64,000 nucleotides of DNA from a virus. Its lineage: Duplodnaviria > Caudoviricetes. The stretch spans positions 32,001 through 96,000 of the IMG/VR virus record IMGVR_UViG_3300013121_000027; one strand, written 5' to 3'. This document shows, one piece after another, positions 48,662-52,827 of the stretch (the stretch's first letter is position 1; every line of letters begins with the position of its first letter). Below the pieces are notes generated by a model. It saw only the letters and a list, made by a program, of their open reading frames with translations. It did not search any database and was not told the origin of the DNA. Position numbers and translations under genes: made by a program.

Positions 48662-49360
48662 ATGACAAAGAAAAATTACACTCATATTACTGCCGTTGTA
48701 GATCGTTCTGGATCGATGGTGACCATTCAGGAAGATGCCCAAGGTGGTATTAACCAGCTTATTGTAGCAAATAAAGAAGCTCCTGGTCAATGTACCTTTG
48801 CTCTCTATCAGTTTGATACAGAATTCGAAACTGTAGTTGCACCATCAAACATTTCTATGGTCGGAGAGTATACTCTTGTACCTCGTGGTGGAACTGCCCT
48901 TCTTGATGCTCAATGGAAAGCTATTCAACTAACTGGTGAATATCTTAAGTCTTTACCAGAAAAACAACGTCCTGAAAAGGTTATCTTCATCACCGTAACT
49001 GATGGTGGGGAAAATATGTCAAAGGAAATTGTTGGATGGCAAGGTACACAAAACCTTAAGAATAAAATTGAAGAGCAGAAGAATAAGTATTCTTGGGATT
49101 TCGTTTACATTGGCGCCAATCAGGACGCTTTTGCTGTCGGTCAATCAATGGGAATTAATACTACTACTACCTATATACCAAATACCTGGTCCACTAAGGC
49201 TATGTACGGCAATCTTGCGACCGCTACTGTGACCTCACGTGCTACAGGCGAATCAATGACTAATTATCTTGCTTCGTCTGTCACTGCTGATGGCACTCTT
49301 GTCTTTGATAAGAAAGACAAAGAGGAAAAGAAAGAAGCTACAACTGGAGATAATAAATGA
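48662..49360 (+). CDS. vWA-domain protein
   Basis: MIDAS motif DRSGSM; PRGGTALLDA; TDGGEN. Confidence 0.9.
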   Translation: MTKKNYTHITAVVDRSGSMVTIQEDAQGGINQLIVANKEAPGQCTFALYQFDTEFETVVAPSNISMVGEYTLVPRGGTALLDAQWKAIQLTGEYLKSLPEKQRPEKVIFITVTDGGENMSKEIVGWQGTQNLKNKIEEQKNKYSWDFVYIGANQDAFAVGQSMGINTTTTYIPNTWSTKAMYGNLATATVTSRATGESMTNYLASSVTADGTLVFDKKDKEEKKEATTGDNK

Positions 49361-49725
49361 ACGTATAGGGTAAATTATACCTTTTCATTAGATCAGATTT
49401 ATCACCTGGGTTAATTACTGCTCAGGCTTGTCATGTTGCTATGTCTGCATGCGAGAAATGGGATTTATATCCTGACAATATAGTTGTTGTATTGGATGGA
49501 GGTAAATCCGAAGATGATCTAATGATTCTTTTAGACAAGTTGACTTGGTGGTGTGGCAATTCTGAATTTTGGGAAGAACCGCGCTTAGGAGACGATGACG
49601 TTGTCGTTTTCCGTGAACCAGATCTTCTTGAGGACATGACAGGATTTGCAATAGTTCCTGGCAAACTTCCTGATTGGGTCTTATCCATCCCTCTTCTGTT
49701 TTCGGAAGGGGGTGAATCTAAATGA
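49357..49725 (+). CDS. Pth2-like peptidyl-tRNA hydrolase with an in-frame TAG at codon 4
   Basis: ATG AAC GTA TAG then GKLYLFIRSDLSPGLITAQACHVA...FREPDL..MTGFA; GGAG RBS and ATGA overlap with the vWA stop. Confidence 0.75.
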
Positions 49726-50038
49726 CTATAGGTACAATCCTCTCCACTGAAGAGCGCTTGCAAGAACAAGTAAATTCTCTTCGCCAACAGGTTGGCAATT
49801 TAAACTACGAACTGTATCACTACAGAGACGAAAATAAAAAACCTTCCTGGCTTCAGGCAAAGATGATGAGTCAAGCTAAAGCTCTTACGAATTTGAATAA
49901 AAGAGTTCGTATGCAGCGGCTTATTCTCAGAGAGTTGAATGTTATTAATCCTGAACTCGCAGATACTATATTTAACTTGGTTAAAGATAAGTATCCAGTC
50001 GAGTTAAATGATCAAATACAATTAACTTTCTAACAGAT

Positions 50039-50078
50039 TTACCTTCTGGAGTTTCGCGGAACGTACTCCAGGAGGTAA
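50039..50078 (+). other. 14 bp hairpin immediately 5' of the suppressor tRNA
   Basis: TTACCTTCTGGAGT pairs with ACTCCAGGAGGTAA. Confidence 0.6.
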
Positions 50079-50081
50079 TAC

Positions 50082-50155
50082 GGTTTCATAGTTCAATGTA
50101 GAACGACATCCTCTAAAGATGTGCGTTGCGGGTTCAAGTCCCGCTGAAACCTCCA
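50082..50155 (+). tRNA. Amber suppressor tRNA (anticodon CTA) with encoded CCA
   Basis: GGTTTCA/TGAAACC-T-CCA; GTTC-AATGTA-GAAC; ACATC-CTCTAAA-GATGT; GCGGG-TTCAAGT-CCCGC. Confidence 0.9.
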
Positions 50156-50355
50156 TGAATAACCATCCCCTAATAGGCAGATGTGTCGAGCTTGTTGAAA
50201 TGATAGACGATCCAGATCCAATTCCCTATGGTGCAAGAGGGACTGTGATGCGTGTTGTTCGATTTTTAGAAACAGAAGTTATAACTGTTAATTGGGAAAT
50301 AAAAAGATGTTTAAATCTTGTCTCACCACCCGATAAATATGTTATAATAGATTAG
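50155..50355 (+). CDS. DUF4314-like protein; ATG overlaps the tRNA CCA
   Basis: G..VELVEM.DDP.PIP.GA.GTV...I.V.W....LNLV...D. Confidence 0.7.
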   Translation: MNNHPLIGRCVELVEMIDDPDPIPYGARGTVMRVVRFLETEVITVNWEIKRCLNLVSPPDKYVIID

Positions 50356-50795: not shown

Positions 50796-50928
50796 GTCAA
50801 AGCCGAATAAAATTCTTTATCGCCTTTCAAGCGGGTGGTCACAGGTTCAAATCCTGTCAAGGGCTAATTCCCTTTGTAGCTCAGTCCGGTAGAGCACCTA
50901 AACGAGGATTTTAAAAACTTGTTTTGAC
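50796..50928 (+). ncRNA. Y RNA-like unit 5, YrlA-type circularly permuted tRNA mimic
   Basis: GTCAAAGC-CGAA...ACTT-GTTTTGAC; T arm ACAGG-TTCAAAT-CCTGT, then closed acceptor AAGGG-CTAATT-CCCTT, then D arm TA-GCTC-AGTCCGGTA-GAGC. Confidence 0.85.
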
Positions 50929-50936
50929 GCCCTCTA

Positions 50937-51243: not shown

Positions 51244-52827
51244 ATGACTACCGATCCTCTGATGCAGTTCAATATGCAGACCACTCCTCAGACTCAGCAA
51301 GCTGATAAGGCTCAGGTCCAGAATAATGCTGGTGGGTTTTCTTTTGAGGTTTCTACCGATCAGCGTCTGCTTCGTTTCTTAATTCTTGGTACTTGGGGCG
51401 GAACTTATTACGTCTCTGAGCAGAAGCTTACTAAGGATTCTTTCGAGAATGTTAAGAAGCTGGTTGACATTGACGGAAAGAAGGTTGTTGATATGGTACT
51501 TGATGTATCGCTCAACAACCGTGCTTATAAGCAGAACCCAACTCTGTTCACTCTCGCTGTAGCTTCTGCCGCTGATGACGTTGAGACTCGTCGCTATGCT
51601 CTTGCCGCTGTAGAAAAGGTATGCCGTACTGGCACCATGTTCTTCCAGTTCCTTGCTTATACTGAGCAGTTCCGTGGCTGGGGTTCCGCTCTTCAGAAGG
51701 CTGCTGCCAATTGGTACACTAATAAGACTCCCGATCAGCTTGCTAATCAGCTTGTCAAGTACCGTCAGCGTGATGGTTGGACTCACCGTGACGTTTTGCG
51801 TCTTGCAAAGCCTAAGATCGCCGCTGACAACCCTATCACGCCAGCTATTCGTTGGACCGTAGGTAAGGATACCGATCCCATTCTGCTTCCAGAGCTGATC
51901 TATGGCTTCCAGGAAGCTCAGAAGGTCACCAATGCTAAGGAGTGGGTGAAGCTTATCGAGCAGTATAAGCTTCCTTGGGAAGCTCTGCCAACCCAGGCTC
52001 TCAATGAGCCTTTGGTTTGGGAAGCTCTTGCTCCCCATATGGGATTGACTGCCTTGATTCGTAATCTTGGTAAGATGAGCGCCTGTGGTGCTCTTGTAAA
52101 CCATAGTGATCTTTCTAAGATTGTCAATGGTCGCCTCAGCGACAAGGAAGCATACCTCAAGGCTCGCGTACATCCAATGCAAGTTCTTCTTGCTCAGAGT
52201 GTTTACTCTGCTGGACGCGGCTTTAAGGGTAATAATACCTGGAATCCAGTTGCAACTGTTGTAGATAATCTTAATGAGGGATTCTATGCTGCATTTGGCA
52301 ACCTTCCAGAAACTGGTAAGCGTCGTATGCTTGCCATTGACGTGTCTGGGTCAATGGGCATGGGCACAATTGCTAATACCTTCTTGACGCCTCGTGATGC
52401 CTCTGCTGCACTTGCTATGGTAGCCCTTCACCAGGATCCGGAAAGCTATACCTTTGGCTTCTCTGGTGGCTTCATTCCTCTTGGCTTGTCCAAGGGTATG
52501 CGCTTGGATTCTGTTATTAAGAAGGTCAATGGTCTTCCTTTTGACAGAACCGATTGTGCTCTGCCTATGGTACACGCAAAGAAGGATCAATTGAAGGTGG
52601 ATTCATTTGAAATCTATACTGACAACGAGACCTGGGCTGGTAAGATTCATCCTCATCAGGCATTGAAGGACTACCGTGCTTGGTCTGGCATCAATTCCAA
52701 GTTTGTTGTAAATGGTATGGTCGCAAACAACTTTACTGTTGCCGATCCTAAGGATCCAGGATCGATCGACGTAGTTGGTTTCGATGCCTCTACCCCAAGC
52801 ATGGTATCAGATTTCATTTGCCAATAA
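51244..52827 (+). CDS. rsr: Ro60/TROVE RNA-binding protein (Rsr ortholog)
   Basis: NNAGGFSF, RFLILG..GGTYY, KYRQRDGWTHRDVLRL, ALIRNLGKM, DVSGSM vWA, TDNETW, GFDA..P. Confidence 0.95.
   Translation: MTTDPLMQFNMQTTPQTQQADKAQVQNNAGGFSFEVSTDQRLLRFLILGTWGGTYYVSEQKLTKDSFENVKKLVDIDGKKVVDMVLDVSLNNRAYKQNPTLFTLAVASAADDVETRRYALAAVEKVCRTGTMFFQFLAYTEQFRGWGSALQKAAANWYTNKTPDQLANQLVKYRQRDGWTHRDVLRLAKPKIAADNPITPAIRWTVGKDTDPILLPELIYGFQEAQKVTNAKEWVKLIEQYKLPWEALPTQALNEPLVWEALAPHMGLTALIRNLGKMSACGALVNHSDLSKIVNGRLSDKEAYLKARVHPMQVLLAQSVYSAGRGFKGNNTWNPVATVVDNLNEGFYAAFGNLPETGKRRMLAIDVSGSMGMGTIANTFLTPRDASAALAMVALHQDPESYTFGFSGGFIPLGLSKGMRLDSVIKKVNGLPFDRTDCALPMVHAKKDQLKVDSFEIYTDNETWAGKIHPHQALKDYRAWSGINSKFVVNGMVANNFTVADPKDPGSIDVVGFDASTPSMVSDFICQ

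What the first reader, a model, noticed from the sequence alone, without database searches (positions are those of the whole stretch)
49357..50155. Peptidyl-tRNA hydrolase gene gated by an amber codon, with an amber-suppressor tRNA nearby
Seen: a well-placed start (GGAG, 7 nt spacer, ATG overlapping the vWA stop) gives M-N-V-TAG and continues in frame into KLYLFIRSDLSPGLITAQACHVA. That N-terminal Pth2-type motif is missing from the track ORF (49441). About 700 nt downstream is an intact tRNA with CTA anticodon and encoded CCA. Other genes appear to use TAG as a real stop. Known: very short ORFs promote peptidyl-tRNA drop-off, which Pth recycles. Inference: a local readthrough switch in which Pth is made only when suppressor tRNA outcompetes RF1, possibly sensing termination or tRNA-recycling stress. 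It lies just upstream of the Ro60/Y RNA locus.
Basis: partly seen in the sequence, partly recalled or inferred. Interest (0 to 1): 0.86.

Follow-up and report, generated by a model that had tools for sequence, protein, structure and literature searches.

The report
Amber-gated Pth2-like gene with suppressor tRNA
A 231-kb phage that otherwise uses the normal genetic code keeps a UAG stop as the fourth codon of a small peptidyl-tRNA-hydrolase-like gene and encodes a UAG-reading tRNA 360 bases downstream; every relative I could inspect keeps an early UAG, so the enzyme is probably made only when that tRNA overrides the stop.

Summary
GGAG, a 7-nt spacer and ATG 49357 open M-N-V-TAG, in frame with a Pth2-fold ORF ending at 49725. 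No ATG, GTG or TTG lies between the TAG and Met29. A standard tRNA-CUA lies at 50082-50155.

The TAG is neither an error nor a private mutation. I found 22 diverged lineages with an in-frame TAG in this gene: most at codon 2-4, one at codon 7, one at codon 55. It is always TAG, although synonymous sites are near saturation. Of the 19 lineages with enough flanking sequence, 16 carry a tRNA-CUA nearby, against 0-1 of about 40 TAG-less relatives. They include cultured cluster C mycobacteriophages.

Codons 5-28 are under strong purifying selection and form the first strand and first helix of the fold, so they must be translated. The genome itself uses the standard code: about 30 ORFs end in TAG, and no other gene is interrupted.

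Best reading (0.7): the phage tRNA decodes the early UAG, which ties synthesis of the hydrolase to suppressor activity. Why the two are tied is inference. I found no published description. This scan has already reported the same motif on many other genomes.

The parts
48662..49360 (+). vWA-domain gene whose stop TGA overlaps the start of the gated gene (ATGA)
   Evidence: ORF list. Pfam VWA_2 match is weak (E 0.0037). The homologous upstream gene is present in L001-L004.
49346..49349 (+). Shine-Dalgarno GGAG, 7 nt before the ATG
   Evidence: Sequence. SD-like motifs at similar spacing precede the leader ATG in L079, L081 and L007.
49357..49365 (+). Start codon and the two sense codons (M-N-V) of the leader
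   Evidence: Relatives read M-S-V, M-S-N, M-N-V, M-S-I, M-S or M-T before the TAG.
49366..49368 (+). In-frame amber codon (codon 4), the gate
   Evidence: Conserved as TAG in 22 lineages. The next base is a purine in 21 of 22, against 16 of 35 terminator TAGs.
49357..49725 (+). Full Pth2-like ORF (122 codons including the TAG); stop TGA 49723-49725
   Evidence: Profile hits PDB Pth2 chains (E 1.9e-6). AF2 model pLDDT 89.7. Foldseek top hits are all Pth2 structures. pN/pS of codons 5-28 is mostly 0.1-0.35.
49722..50033 (+). Conserved 103-aa coiled-coil ORF; its ATG overlaps the Pth2-like stop
   Evidence: Homologous ORFs of 101-107 aa follow the Pth2-like gene in L002, L005, L007, L009, L016, L019 and L079 (blastp E 1e-8 to 1e-53). 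No Pfam family.
50082..50155 (+). tRNA with anticodon CUA (50113-50115), discriminator U, encoded CCA
   Evidence: ARAGORN; Rfam tRNA 62.5 bits. Among 12 diverged homologues, 15 of 16 stem pairs show compensatory changes and U33-C-U-A is invariant.
50155..50355 (+). DUF4314 gene directly after the tRNA; ends TAG TAA. Part of the syntenic neighbourhood, not of the gate.
   Evidence: Pfam DUF4314 E 1.1e-6. Same position after the tRNA in L002 and L003.

Best explanation
The gene at 49357-49725 encodes a Pth2-fold hydrolase. Its translation starts at ATG 49357 and must pass a UAG at codon 4. The elongator tRNA-CUA encoded 357 nt downstream on the same strand reads that UAG. Full-length protein is therefore made only when the phage's suppressor tRNA is present, processed and charged, and roughly in proportion to it. 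Where release factor 1 wins, the ribosome releases a tripeptide at almost no cost. This also starves the 103-aa ORF, whose start overlaps the Pth2-like stop and probably depends on translational coupling. The module is a natural translational AND-gate, or feed-forward link, between a suppressor tRNA and a tRNA-ester hydrolase, in a phage that otherwise uses UAG as a stop.

Shown by computation: the anatomy; conservation of the TAG; protein-level selection behind it; the fold; co-occurrence with the tRNA and compensatory change in the tRNA; and standard-code use in the rest of the genome.

Inferred: that this tRNA is the decoder, which amino acid it inserts, and what the link is for. The likeliest purposes are to match hydrolase dose to the amount of readthrough (clearing by-product peptidyl-tRNAs) or to feed back on the suppressor itself.
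For: 1. Anatomy. SD, 7 nt, then an ATG overlapping the upstream stop. There is no ATG, GTG or TTG between the TAG and Met29.
2. Starting at Met29 would delete strand 1 (residues 7-11) and most of helix 1 (17-35) of a confident model (pLDDT 89.7). That model's best structural matches are all Pth2 enzymes. The invariant Q23 and H26 would be lost too.
3. For codons 5-28, pN/pS is 0.1-0.35 in most pairs, while pS is 0.35-1.0. This stretch is translated in this frame and is more constrained than the rest of the gene.
4. All 10 lineages of the close clade keep a TAG at codon 3 or 4, and 12 further lineages have one at codon 2, 3, 7 or 55. It is never TAA or TGA. The codon-55 TAG in L040 is at a non-homologous position, so it arose independently, and a tRNA-CUA lies about 60 nt after that gene.
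5. A tRNA-CUA lies nearby in 16 of 19 assessable TAG-bearing lineages, against 0-1 of about 40 TAG-less ones (Fisher p about 1e-10; no phylogenetic correction).
6. The tRNA-CUAs are only 63-67% identical to each other, yet they keep U33-C-U-A, and 15 of 16 stem pairs show compensatory changes.
7. The genome uses the standard code. ORF coverage is 86.2% under code 11 and 87.2% with TAG read through, and 27-35 ORFs end in TAG. No other interrupted gene was found.
8. The base after the gate TAG is a purine in 21 of 22 lineages, against 16 of 35 terminator TAGs (p 1.3e-4).
Against: Nothing here is experimental. Expression, processing, charging and amino-acid identity of the tRNA are unknown: discriminators differ (U, G, A) and no paralogy to any phage tRNA is evident.

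TAG ends about 30 ordinary ORFs of this phage, so an efficient suppressor should be costly. No excess of back-up stops is seen after them.

Three TAG-bearing lineages lack a tRNA-CUA in the sequence available. L007 is a 10.9-kb contig. L019-21 have only 685 nt downstream. L027 lies on a 221-kb contig with no tRNA at all. In L019 and L027 the codon after the TAG is ATT, which is known as a rare bacterial start codon. In the mycobacteriophages and L079 it is GTG or ATG. In those lineages the protein could therefore be made without readthrough, which hints that the leader may also work as a mini-ORF.

The window's tRNA has a D loop without the usual GG. The purine bias at +4 may partly reflect the amino acids preferred at codon 5.
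Confidence: 0.7

Rival explanations
1. Leaky termination: the UAG is read at a low level by near-cognate host tRNAs, which simply keeps the hydrolase scarce. The phage tRNA-CUA serves another purpose and is only a neighbour.
For: Three TAG-bearing lineages show no tRNA-CUA in the sequence available. The protein's N-terminal tail tolerates any residue: positions 2-5 vary between lineages.
Against: The association between TAG and tRNA-CUA is strong (16/19 against 0-1/40). It was re-created at a different codon in L040 with a tRNA-CUA about 60 nt away. The stop is always TAG, never TGA, although by general knowledge TGA is the leakiest stop codon in bacteria and would suit mere attenuation best.
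Confidence: 0.12
2. Leader mini-ORF: M-N-V-stop is a regulatory minigene. The hydrolase is made by termination-reinitiation at a non-canonical codon just after the stop, or the minigene senses peptidyl-tRNA drop-off. Readthrough is not the route to the protein.
For: In other lineages the stop is followed directly by a possible start: GTG or ATG in the mycobacteriophages, L035 and L079, and ATT in L019 and L027. L039 and L045 have an out-of-frame 4-5-codon mini-ORF ending in TGA that overlaps an ATT. By general knowledge, very short ORFs favour peptidyl-tRNA drop-off.
Against: In the window and its seven closest lineages, the codons after the TAG are GGT, GAT, GAC, AAC or GAA. They are followed by AAA, AAG or AGG and then a Leu codon. 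No start or conserved near-cognate start precedes the essential first strand. No conserved RNA structure surrounds the site.
Confidence: 0.08
3. Partial or incipient recoding: the phage uses TAG as a sense codon in a set of genes, and the Pth2-like gene is just one of them.
For: Recoded phages with suppressor tRNAs are known (bioRxiv 10.1101/2021.08.26.457843). TAG is the rarest stop codon here (27 of 242 long ORFs). The gene caller behind the public contigs used TAG=Q for the short contigs.
Against: Coverage gains only 1% under TAG readthrough, less than under TGA or TAA readthrough. No Pfam domain spans a TAG in the same-frame ORF pairs tested. The one other early-TAG candidate lies inside another gene. 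About 30 ORFs end in TAG.
Confidence: 0.05
4. Broken gene or assembly error.
For: A single in-frame stop in a small ORF is what a pseudogene or a read error looks like.
Against: The same feature occurs in 22 independently assembled, diverged lineages from different samples, with purifying selection on both sides of it.
Confidence: 0.01

Closest known systems
Stop-codon-recoded phages with phage-encoded suppressor tRNAs (TAG read as Gln, 'code 15'; Borges et al., bioRxiv 10.1101/2021.08.26.457843)
   Same: A phage-encoded tRNA-CUA lets in-frame TAG codons be translated in a host that uses the standard code. That paper proposes that this controls when certain proteins are made.
   Different: In those phages many, mostly late and lysis, genes carry in-frame TAGs, and coding density collapses under code 11. 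Here the genome uses the standard code, TAG ends about 30 ORFs, and one small gene next to the tRNA carries one TAG at its very start. That paper does not mention a hydrolase.
prfB (release factor 2) autoregulation through an early in-frame UGA (general knowledge)
   Same: In both, a translation-factor gene is gated by an in-frame stop near its start. Its passage depends on competition between termination and an alternative decoding event.
   Different: prfB uses a +1 frameshift at codon 26 and senses its own product. Here the ORF stays in frame, a dedicated tRNA is the presumed decoder, and feedback by the product is only a hypothesis.
Engineered suppressor-tRNA feed-forward gates (Nucleic Acids Res 2020, PMC7969014)
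   Same: An amber codon in the target gene plus a separately encoded amber suppressor tRNA forms a translational AND gate.
   Different: That gate is synthetic. This one is a natural, conserved counterpart whose target is a tRNA-ester hydrolase. I saw only the title and abstract of that paper.
Peptidyl-tRNA hydrolase 2 (Pfam PF01981; PDB 2zv3, 1wn2, 1q7s Bit1, 3erj, 1xty)
   Same: Same fold (Foldseek probability 1.0, TM 0.55-0.65). The profile matches Pth2 chains over the whole length. Q, H, D and T positions are conserved.
   Different: The relationship is very distant: the window protein scores 14.9 bits against a 23-bit threshold. In the HMM alignment the Gly-Lys of the Pth2 N-terminal motif aligns with Gly-Leu (P-G-L). 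Activity is untested.
Orphan amber-suppressor tRNAs of standard-code jumbo phages, e.g. Xanthomonas phage XacN1 (PMC5852040)
   Same: A jumbo phage with many tRNAs, tRNA-CUA genes and a peptidyl-tRNA hydrolase gene. Its authors could not find any target for the suppressors.
   Different: They looked only at extensions beyond annotated TAG stops. Here the target is a TAG three codons after a start, which that kind of analysis cannot see. I did not examine XacN1 itself; its hydrolase did not appear in my tblastn searches.
Lambda bar minigenes (general knowledge)
   Same: An SD, a start, one to a few sense codons and a stop. In that system such mini-ORFs cause peptidyl-tRNA drop-off, which is the substrate of Pth.
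   Different: The bar minigenes are free-standing and are toxic in pth-defective hosts. Here the mini-ORF is in frame with, and fused to, a hydrolase gene.

Membership tests
Pth2 (PF01981) peptidyl-tRNA hydrolase | Sequence match to the family model above its curated threshold | tested here: inconclusive
   The window protein scores 14.9 bits (E 0.031) against a 23-bit cut-off and matches only residues 6-36. However, a 17-sequence profile hits PDB Pth2 chains over the full length (24bt_A E 1.9e-6, 1rzw 2.7e-5, 2zv3 2.7e-4). Most of the 558 relatives carry PF01981.
Pth2 (PF01981) peptidyl-tRNA hydrolase | Pth2 alpha/beta fold | tested here: met
   AF2 model pLDDT 89.7, pTM 0.85. The ten best Foldseek matches are all Pth2 structures (2zv3, 1wn2, 1q7s, 3erj, 1xty), with probability 0.92-1.0 and TM 0.42-0.65 but E-values of only 3e-3 to 3e-2.
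Pth2 (PF01981) peptidyl-tRNA hydrolase | Catalytic residues (from memory: a Lys in the N-terminal G-K motif and an Asp before the conserved Thr, as in Sulfolobus Pth2) | tested here: inconclusive
   D89 and T95 are invariant and align with the D and T of Pth2. The G-K position is G-L in this family. I could not verify the residue roles from a paper.
Pth2 (PF01981) peptidyl-tRNA hydrolase | Hydrolysis of peptidyl-tRNA or N-acyl-aminoacyl-tRNA | not testable with these tools
   Needs an enzyme assay.
Amber suppressor tRNA | Cloverleaf with a 7-nt anticodon loop, U33, anticodon CUA and a purine at 37 | tested here: met
   Rfam tRNA 62.5 bits (gathering score 29); loop CUCUAAA. The D loop lacks the usual GG.
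Amber suppressor tRNA | Maintained by selection as a tRNA | tested here: met
   Across 12 homologues, 15 of 16 predicted stem pairs show changes on both sides, and the CUA is invariant.
Amber suppressor tRNA | Expressed, aminoacylated and able to compete with RF1 | not testable with these tools
   Identity elements are ambiguous: discriminators are U, G or A, and there is no clear paralogue.
Stop-codon-recoded (code 15) phage | Many genes interrupted by TAG; coding density clearly higher when TAG is read as sense; TAG not used as a terminator | tested here: not met
   Coverage 86.2% against 87.2%; 27-35 ORFs end in TAG; no other interrupted gene.
prfB-type autoregulatory recoding | Programmed +1 frameshift at an in-frame stop | tested here: not met
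   The ATG and the downstream ORF are in the same frame. A +1 shift would leave the frame.
Amber initiator tRNA (initiation at UAG) | 1:72 mismatch and three G-C pairs at the bottom of the anticodon stem (general knowledge) | tested here: not met
   G1-C72 is paired, and the anticodon stem ACAUC/GAUGU has no G-C run.

The most novel reading that the evidence does not exclude
The Pth2-like enzyme and the suppressor tRNA form a closed homeostat. The enzyme is made only through UAG readthrough. It then removes the acyl or peptidyl group from the suppressor tRNA itself, or from its drop-off products. Readthrough in the infected cell is thereby held at a low set-point that the phage's roughly 30 TAG-terminated genes can tolerate. 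This would make phage Pth2-like proteins dedicated partners of unusual tRNAs rather than general recycling enzymes. That view fits their linkage to CUA tRNAs, a UUA tRNA and tRNAs with 9-nt loops in different lineages.
Probability: 0.15. Interest if true: 0.9.

Novelty: new variant of a known kind. Interest (0 to 1): 0.78.

Why it matters
Suppressor tRNAs are common in large phages that use the standard code, and what they are for is an open question. The XacN1 authors state that they could not find a target (PMC5852040).

A conserved amber codon in the first few codons of the neighbouring Pth2-like gene gives these tRNAs a concrete, testable target. It would also be a natural example of gene-specific translational gating by a suppressor tRNA, a design that synthetic biologists built independently.

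The arrangement also occurs in cultured cluster C mycobacteriophages, as RTG-TAG-GTG followed by a tRNA-CUA 130-310 nt downstream. It can therefore be tested in Mycobacterium smegmatis. One caveat applies there: a start codon directly follows the TAG.

It also shows that routine annotation truncates or mis-starts this gene family, and that searches for suppressor targets at gene ends miss such gates.

Tried and rejected
- **Global recoding.** ORF coverage under code 11 compared with TAG, TGA or TAA readthrough shows no signal.
- **Other gated genes.** I listed all start, up to 12 codons, stop, long-ORF arrangements, and all kept ORFs whose upstream stop is TAG. The only candidate with a strong SD (genome minus strand, about 120985-121040) lies inside the preceding gene. 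Four same-frame ORF pairs joined across a TAG show no Pfam domain spanning the TAG.
- **Back-up stops.** There is no excess of back-up stops after TAG-terminated ORFs.
- **RNA structure.** No readthrough-promoting structure was found. Folds of 100 nt around the gate in 8 lineages share nothing, and only one of the eight (L007, z -2.9) folds more stably than its shuffles.
- **Release factor and tmRNA.** No RF-1 domain and no tmRNA in the genome.
- **Amino-acid identity of the tRNA.** Identity to other phage tRNAs is 50-65% with no clear parent, and discriminators vary. An initiator-tRNA reading is rejected on stem features.
- **Searches that found nothing.** blastn of the locus against GenBank phages gave no match. 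The first IMG/VR scan with the close-clade alignment gave none, and alignment A3 was too diverse to scan.
- **Missing tRNAs.** I looked for a hidden tRNA in L007, L011, L019 and L020 with Rfam and found no CUA tRNA. The partial tRNA at the L007 start is Asp.
- **Stop-anticodon covariation.** Earlier scan notes report that TGA or TAA gates pair with UCA or UUA tRNAs. My sample held no such gate. The one UUA tRNA (LR745208) sits beside an uninterrupted gene, so I could not test the claim.
- **Literature.** Seven searches found no description of the arrangement.
Full report
**The observation**

The window is bases 32001-96000 of a complete 231,459-bp phage genome with direct terminal repeats. GC content is 38%, and it carries 22 ARAGORN-detected tRNA genes.

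At the given coordinates the sequence reads GGAG (49346-49349), seven bases, then ATG AAC GTA TAG GGT AAA TTA TAC and so on. The ATG (49357) overlaps the TGA stop of the upstream vWA gene. The frame stays open to TGA at 49723-49725. No ATG, GTG or TTG lies between the TAG (49366-49368) and ATG 49441, which is why the mechanical ORF is only 94 aa.

A tRNA at 50082-50155 has a normal 5-bp anticodon stem and the 7-nt loop CUCUAAA. Its anticodon is CUA, its discriminator is U, and CCA is encoded. It scores 62.5 bits against Rfam's tRNA model.

**Is the genome recoded?**

No. Long non-overlapping ORFs cover 86.2% of the genome under code 11 and 87.2% if TAG is read through. That gain is smaller than for TGA or TAA readthrough.

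Between 27 and 35 ORFs end in TAG, among them the AAA ATPase gene two genes upstream. I searched for other genes with an early or internal in-frame TAG. The only candidate with a good ribosome-binding site lies inside another gene. No Pfam domain bridges a TAG in the four same-frame ORF pairs I tested. The genome has no RF-1 domain and no tmRNA.

**Is the TAG real and conserved?**

Yes, and this is the main result. Protein searches returned full-length relatives that translate only with TAG read as sense, and truncated relatives called under code 11. Their contigs show the following leaders:

| Lineage | Leader and first residues | TAG codon |
|---|---|---|
| window | M-N-V-TAG-G-K-L-Y | 4 |
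| L001 | M-S-V-TAG-D-K-L-Y | 4 |
| L002-4 | M-S-N-TAG-G-K-L-Y | 4 |
| L005-6 | M-S-N-TAG-D-K-L-Y | 4 |
| L007-8 | M-S-V-TAG-N-K-L-Y | 4 |
| L009-15, L026 | M-N-V-TAG-D-R-L-Y | 4 |
| L016-18 | M-S-I-TAG-E-K-L-Y | 4 |
| L019-21 | M-S-TAG-I-N-D-R-L-Y | 3 |

Scans of IMG/VR and JGI metagenomes, plus two more look-ups, added further lineages:
- L027/L083: M-S-TAG-I-D-K-L-Y
- L079: M-S-TAG-V-P-D-R-L-Y
- L080: M-S-TAG-V-K-K-L-Y
- L081: TAG at codon 7
- L082 and L096: M-T-TAG
- L040: TAG at codon 55, inside the second helix region

The stop is always TAG. Identity to the window protein falls as low as 30-39%, and synonymous sites between lineages are near saturation (pS 0.35-1.0). The TAG has therefore been kept by selection, not by lack of time.

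**Is the stretch behind the TAG translated?**

For codons 5-28, pN/pS is 0.1-0.35 in most lineage pairs, lower than for the rest of the gene at 0.3-0.6. An AlphaFold model built on 66 relatives is confident (pLDDT 89.7, pTM 0.85). It places strand 1 at residues 7-11 and helix 1 at 17-35. Q23 and H26 in that helix are invariant across the family. A protein starting at Met29 would lack all of this.

The model's ten best Foldseek matches are all Pth2 structures: MJ0051, PH1539, Bit1, AF2095 and Sulfolobus Pth2. Probabilities are 0.92-1.0 and TM-scores 0.42-0.65. A family profile matches PDB Pth2 chains over the full length (E 1.9e-6).

The protein is thus a distant Pth2-fold member, but the window sequence alone is below Pfam's threshold. 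In the HMM alignment the Gly-Lys of the Pth2 N-terminal motif aligns with Gly-Leu. Hydrolase activity is an inference.

**The tRNA link**

A tRNA-CUA lies on the same strand within 1.3 kb downstream in the window, L002/3, L005/6, L009/10/12, L015, L016-18, L026, L079, L081 and L082. In L040 it lies about 60 nt after the gene with the codon-55 TAG.

Of 19 TAG-bearing lineages with enough flanking sequence, 16 have it. Of about 40 TAG-less lineages, none has a standard one. One of them, L107, has an odd CUA tRNA with C33. Fisher's test gives p of about 1e-10, but the lineages are related, so this number overstates independence.

The twelve tRNA-CUAs I aligned are only 63-67% identical. Even so, they keep U33-C-U-A invariant, and 15 of 16 predicted stem pairs show compensatory changes. 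They are functional tRNAs selected for this anticodon.

The base after the gate TAG is a purine in 21 of 22 lineages, against 16 of 35 for the phage's terminator TAGs. By general knowledge a 3' purine favours amber suppression in E. coli. The bias may also reflect the residues preferred at the next codon.

**Cultured phages**

The same gene followed by a tRNA-CUA occurs in the roughly 200 cluster C mycobacteriophages in GenBank.
- Nappy (Bixzunavirus) reads GAAGG-C-ATG-TAG-GTG, with the tRNA 306 nt after the gene.
- Myrna, Phabba and ScoobyDoobyDoo read GTG-TAG-GTG.
- A Myrna-like metagenomic contig (L035) reads GTG-TAG-ATG.

In these phages the annotated start is the codon right after the TAG, and it sits at good distance from the SD. 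The protein may therefore not need readthrough, and the relation to the gate is unresolved.

In the uncultured 485-kb phage LR745208, an uninterrupted Pth2-like gene is followed by a tRNA with anticodon UUA. The linkage of this gene family to stop-reading tRNAs is thus broader than the gate itself.

**Mechanism**

The best-supported reading has four steps:
1. Translation starts at ATG 49357.
2. The ribosome meets UAG with only a tripeptide on the P-site tRNA.
3. Either RF1 ends translation at trivial cost, or the phage tRNA-CUA inserts an amino acid and the full hydrolase is made.
4. The conserved 103-aa ORF, whose ATG overlaps the hydrolase stop, is then translated by coupling. This ORF is homologous in all lineages of the clade.

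I put 0.7 on the tRNA being the decoder and the TAG being a gate.

What the gate is for is inference. Three options are open:
- It matches hydrolase dose to the amount of readthrough, which should create stalled ribosomes and stray peptidyl-tRNAs.
- It delays the enzyme until the tRNA set is mature.
- It forms a feedback loop in which the enzyme acts on the suppressor itself.

**Alternatives**

- **Termination-reinitiation.** Some lineages put ATT, GTG or ATG right after the stop. The window clade has no usable start codon there.
- **Host near-cognate readthrough.** This cannot be excluded, but it does not explain the tRNA association or the exclusive use of TAG.
- **Error, pseudogene or global recoding.** These are rejected by the comparative data above.

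**Comparison with what is known**

Phage suppressor tRNAs and genome-wide TAG recoding are known (bioRxiv 10.1101/2021.08.26.457843). That paper does not mention a hydrolase.

The XacN1 paper reports CUA tRNAs and a peptidyl-tRNA hydrolase in one jumbo phage and states that no suppressor target could be found (PMC5852040). A survey of mycobacterial tRNA arrays notes the PTH2-like gene in cluster C arrays, but in a term search of its text the words "suppressor" and "CTA" do not occur (PMC5966550). Seven literature searches found no description of an amber-gated Pth2-like gene.

Within this scan the same motif has already been reported on many other genomes. Those notes agree with what I found independently. 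Their claim that the stop type and the tRNA anticodon change together could not be tested with my sample.

**Verdict**

I class it as a new variant of a known kind: suppressor-tRNA decoding of in-frame stops in phages, here confined to one conserved gene beside the tRNA in a standard-code genome. No experiment exists yet.

Noticed in passing
L029:3655-3894, L033:3742-3894, L037:3903-3979, L043:3783-3976, L039:3813-3887 and about 30 of the 48 JGI loci (L084-L128): TAG-less Pth2-like genes are directly preceded by one or two tRNA genes (Rfam 41-61 bits). ARAGORN calls them Ile(aat), Phe(aaa), Val(aac) or Leu(aag). The ones whose sequences I read have a 4-5-bp anticodon stem and an enlarged, mostly 9-nt anticodon loop, for example AGUAAUGAC or CCUAAAGAA. 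These loops contain the stop-codon sequences UAA and UGA.
   Followed up: partly
window 49722-50033: The 103-aa coiled-coil ORF with a basic R-V-R-x-Q-R-L motif follows the Pth2-like gene in every lineage of the TAG clade. In most it overlaps or abuts the Pth2-like stop; in L007 it lies about 500 nt downstream. It belongs to no known family.
   Followed up: partly
L024:2478-2488 (Nappy), L025:1495-1503 (Phabba), L023:1471-1479 (ScoobyDoobyDoo), L035: In cluster C mycobacteriophages the annotated GTG or ATG start of the Pth2-like gene is immediately preceded by an in-frame start-stop pair (ATG-TAG or GTG-TAG). A tRNA-CUA lies 130-310 nt downstream.
   Followed up: partly
L022:3001-3487 (LR745208, 485-kb uncultured phage): An uninterrupted Pth2-like gene is followed about 35 nt later by a tRNA with anticodon UUA, an ochre suppressor type.
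   Followed up: partly
L040:3995-4445 (143-kb IMG/VR contig): This Pth2-like gene has a normal start but an in-frame TAG at codon 55. A tRNA-CUA lies about 60 nt after its stop. It is a single contig, so an error cannot be excluded.
   Followed up: partly
L039:3970-4010 and L045:3965-4010: A 4-5-codon out-of-frame mini-ORF with a good SD ends in TGA, overlapping an in-frame ATT (..CATTGA..) just before the conserved first strand of the Pth2-like ORF.
   Followed up: no
L048:3836-3913: A tRNA-like gene directly upstream of a Pth2-like ORF has an irregular anticodon loop (..CCUACUAC..). That ORF has an in-frame TAG eight codons before the conserved R-L-Y and no evident start.
   Followed up: no
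window 50153-50157: The start ATG of the DUF4314 gene shares its A with the last base of the tRNA's encoded CCA. That gene ends with a double stop, TAG TAA.
   Followed up: no
window 50095-50100: The D loop of the window's tRNA-CUA (AAUGUA) lacks the usual GG. Its homologues in other lineages have it.
   Followed up: no
window 50796-50931: A YrlA (Y RNA-like) match of 46.4 bits, below the gathering score of 69, lies within the repeat array upstream of the Ro60 gene at 51244-52827.
   Followed up: no
L020:4745-4900: A long inverted repeat (GUGUAUGUGUGGCG ... CGCCACACAUACAC) lies downstream of the ORF103 homologue, where other lineages have the tRNA-CUA. Rfam finds nothing there.
   Followed up: no
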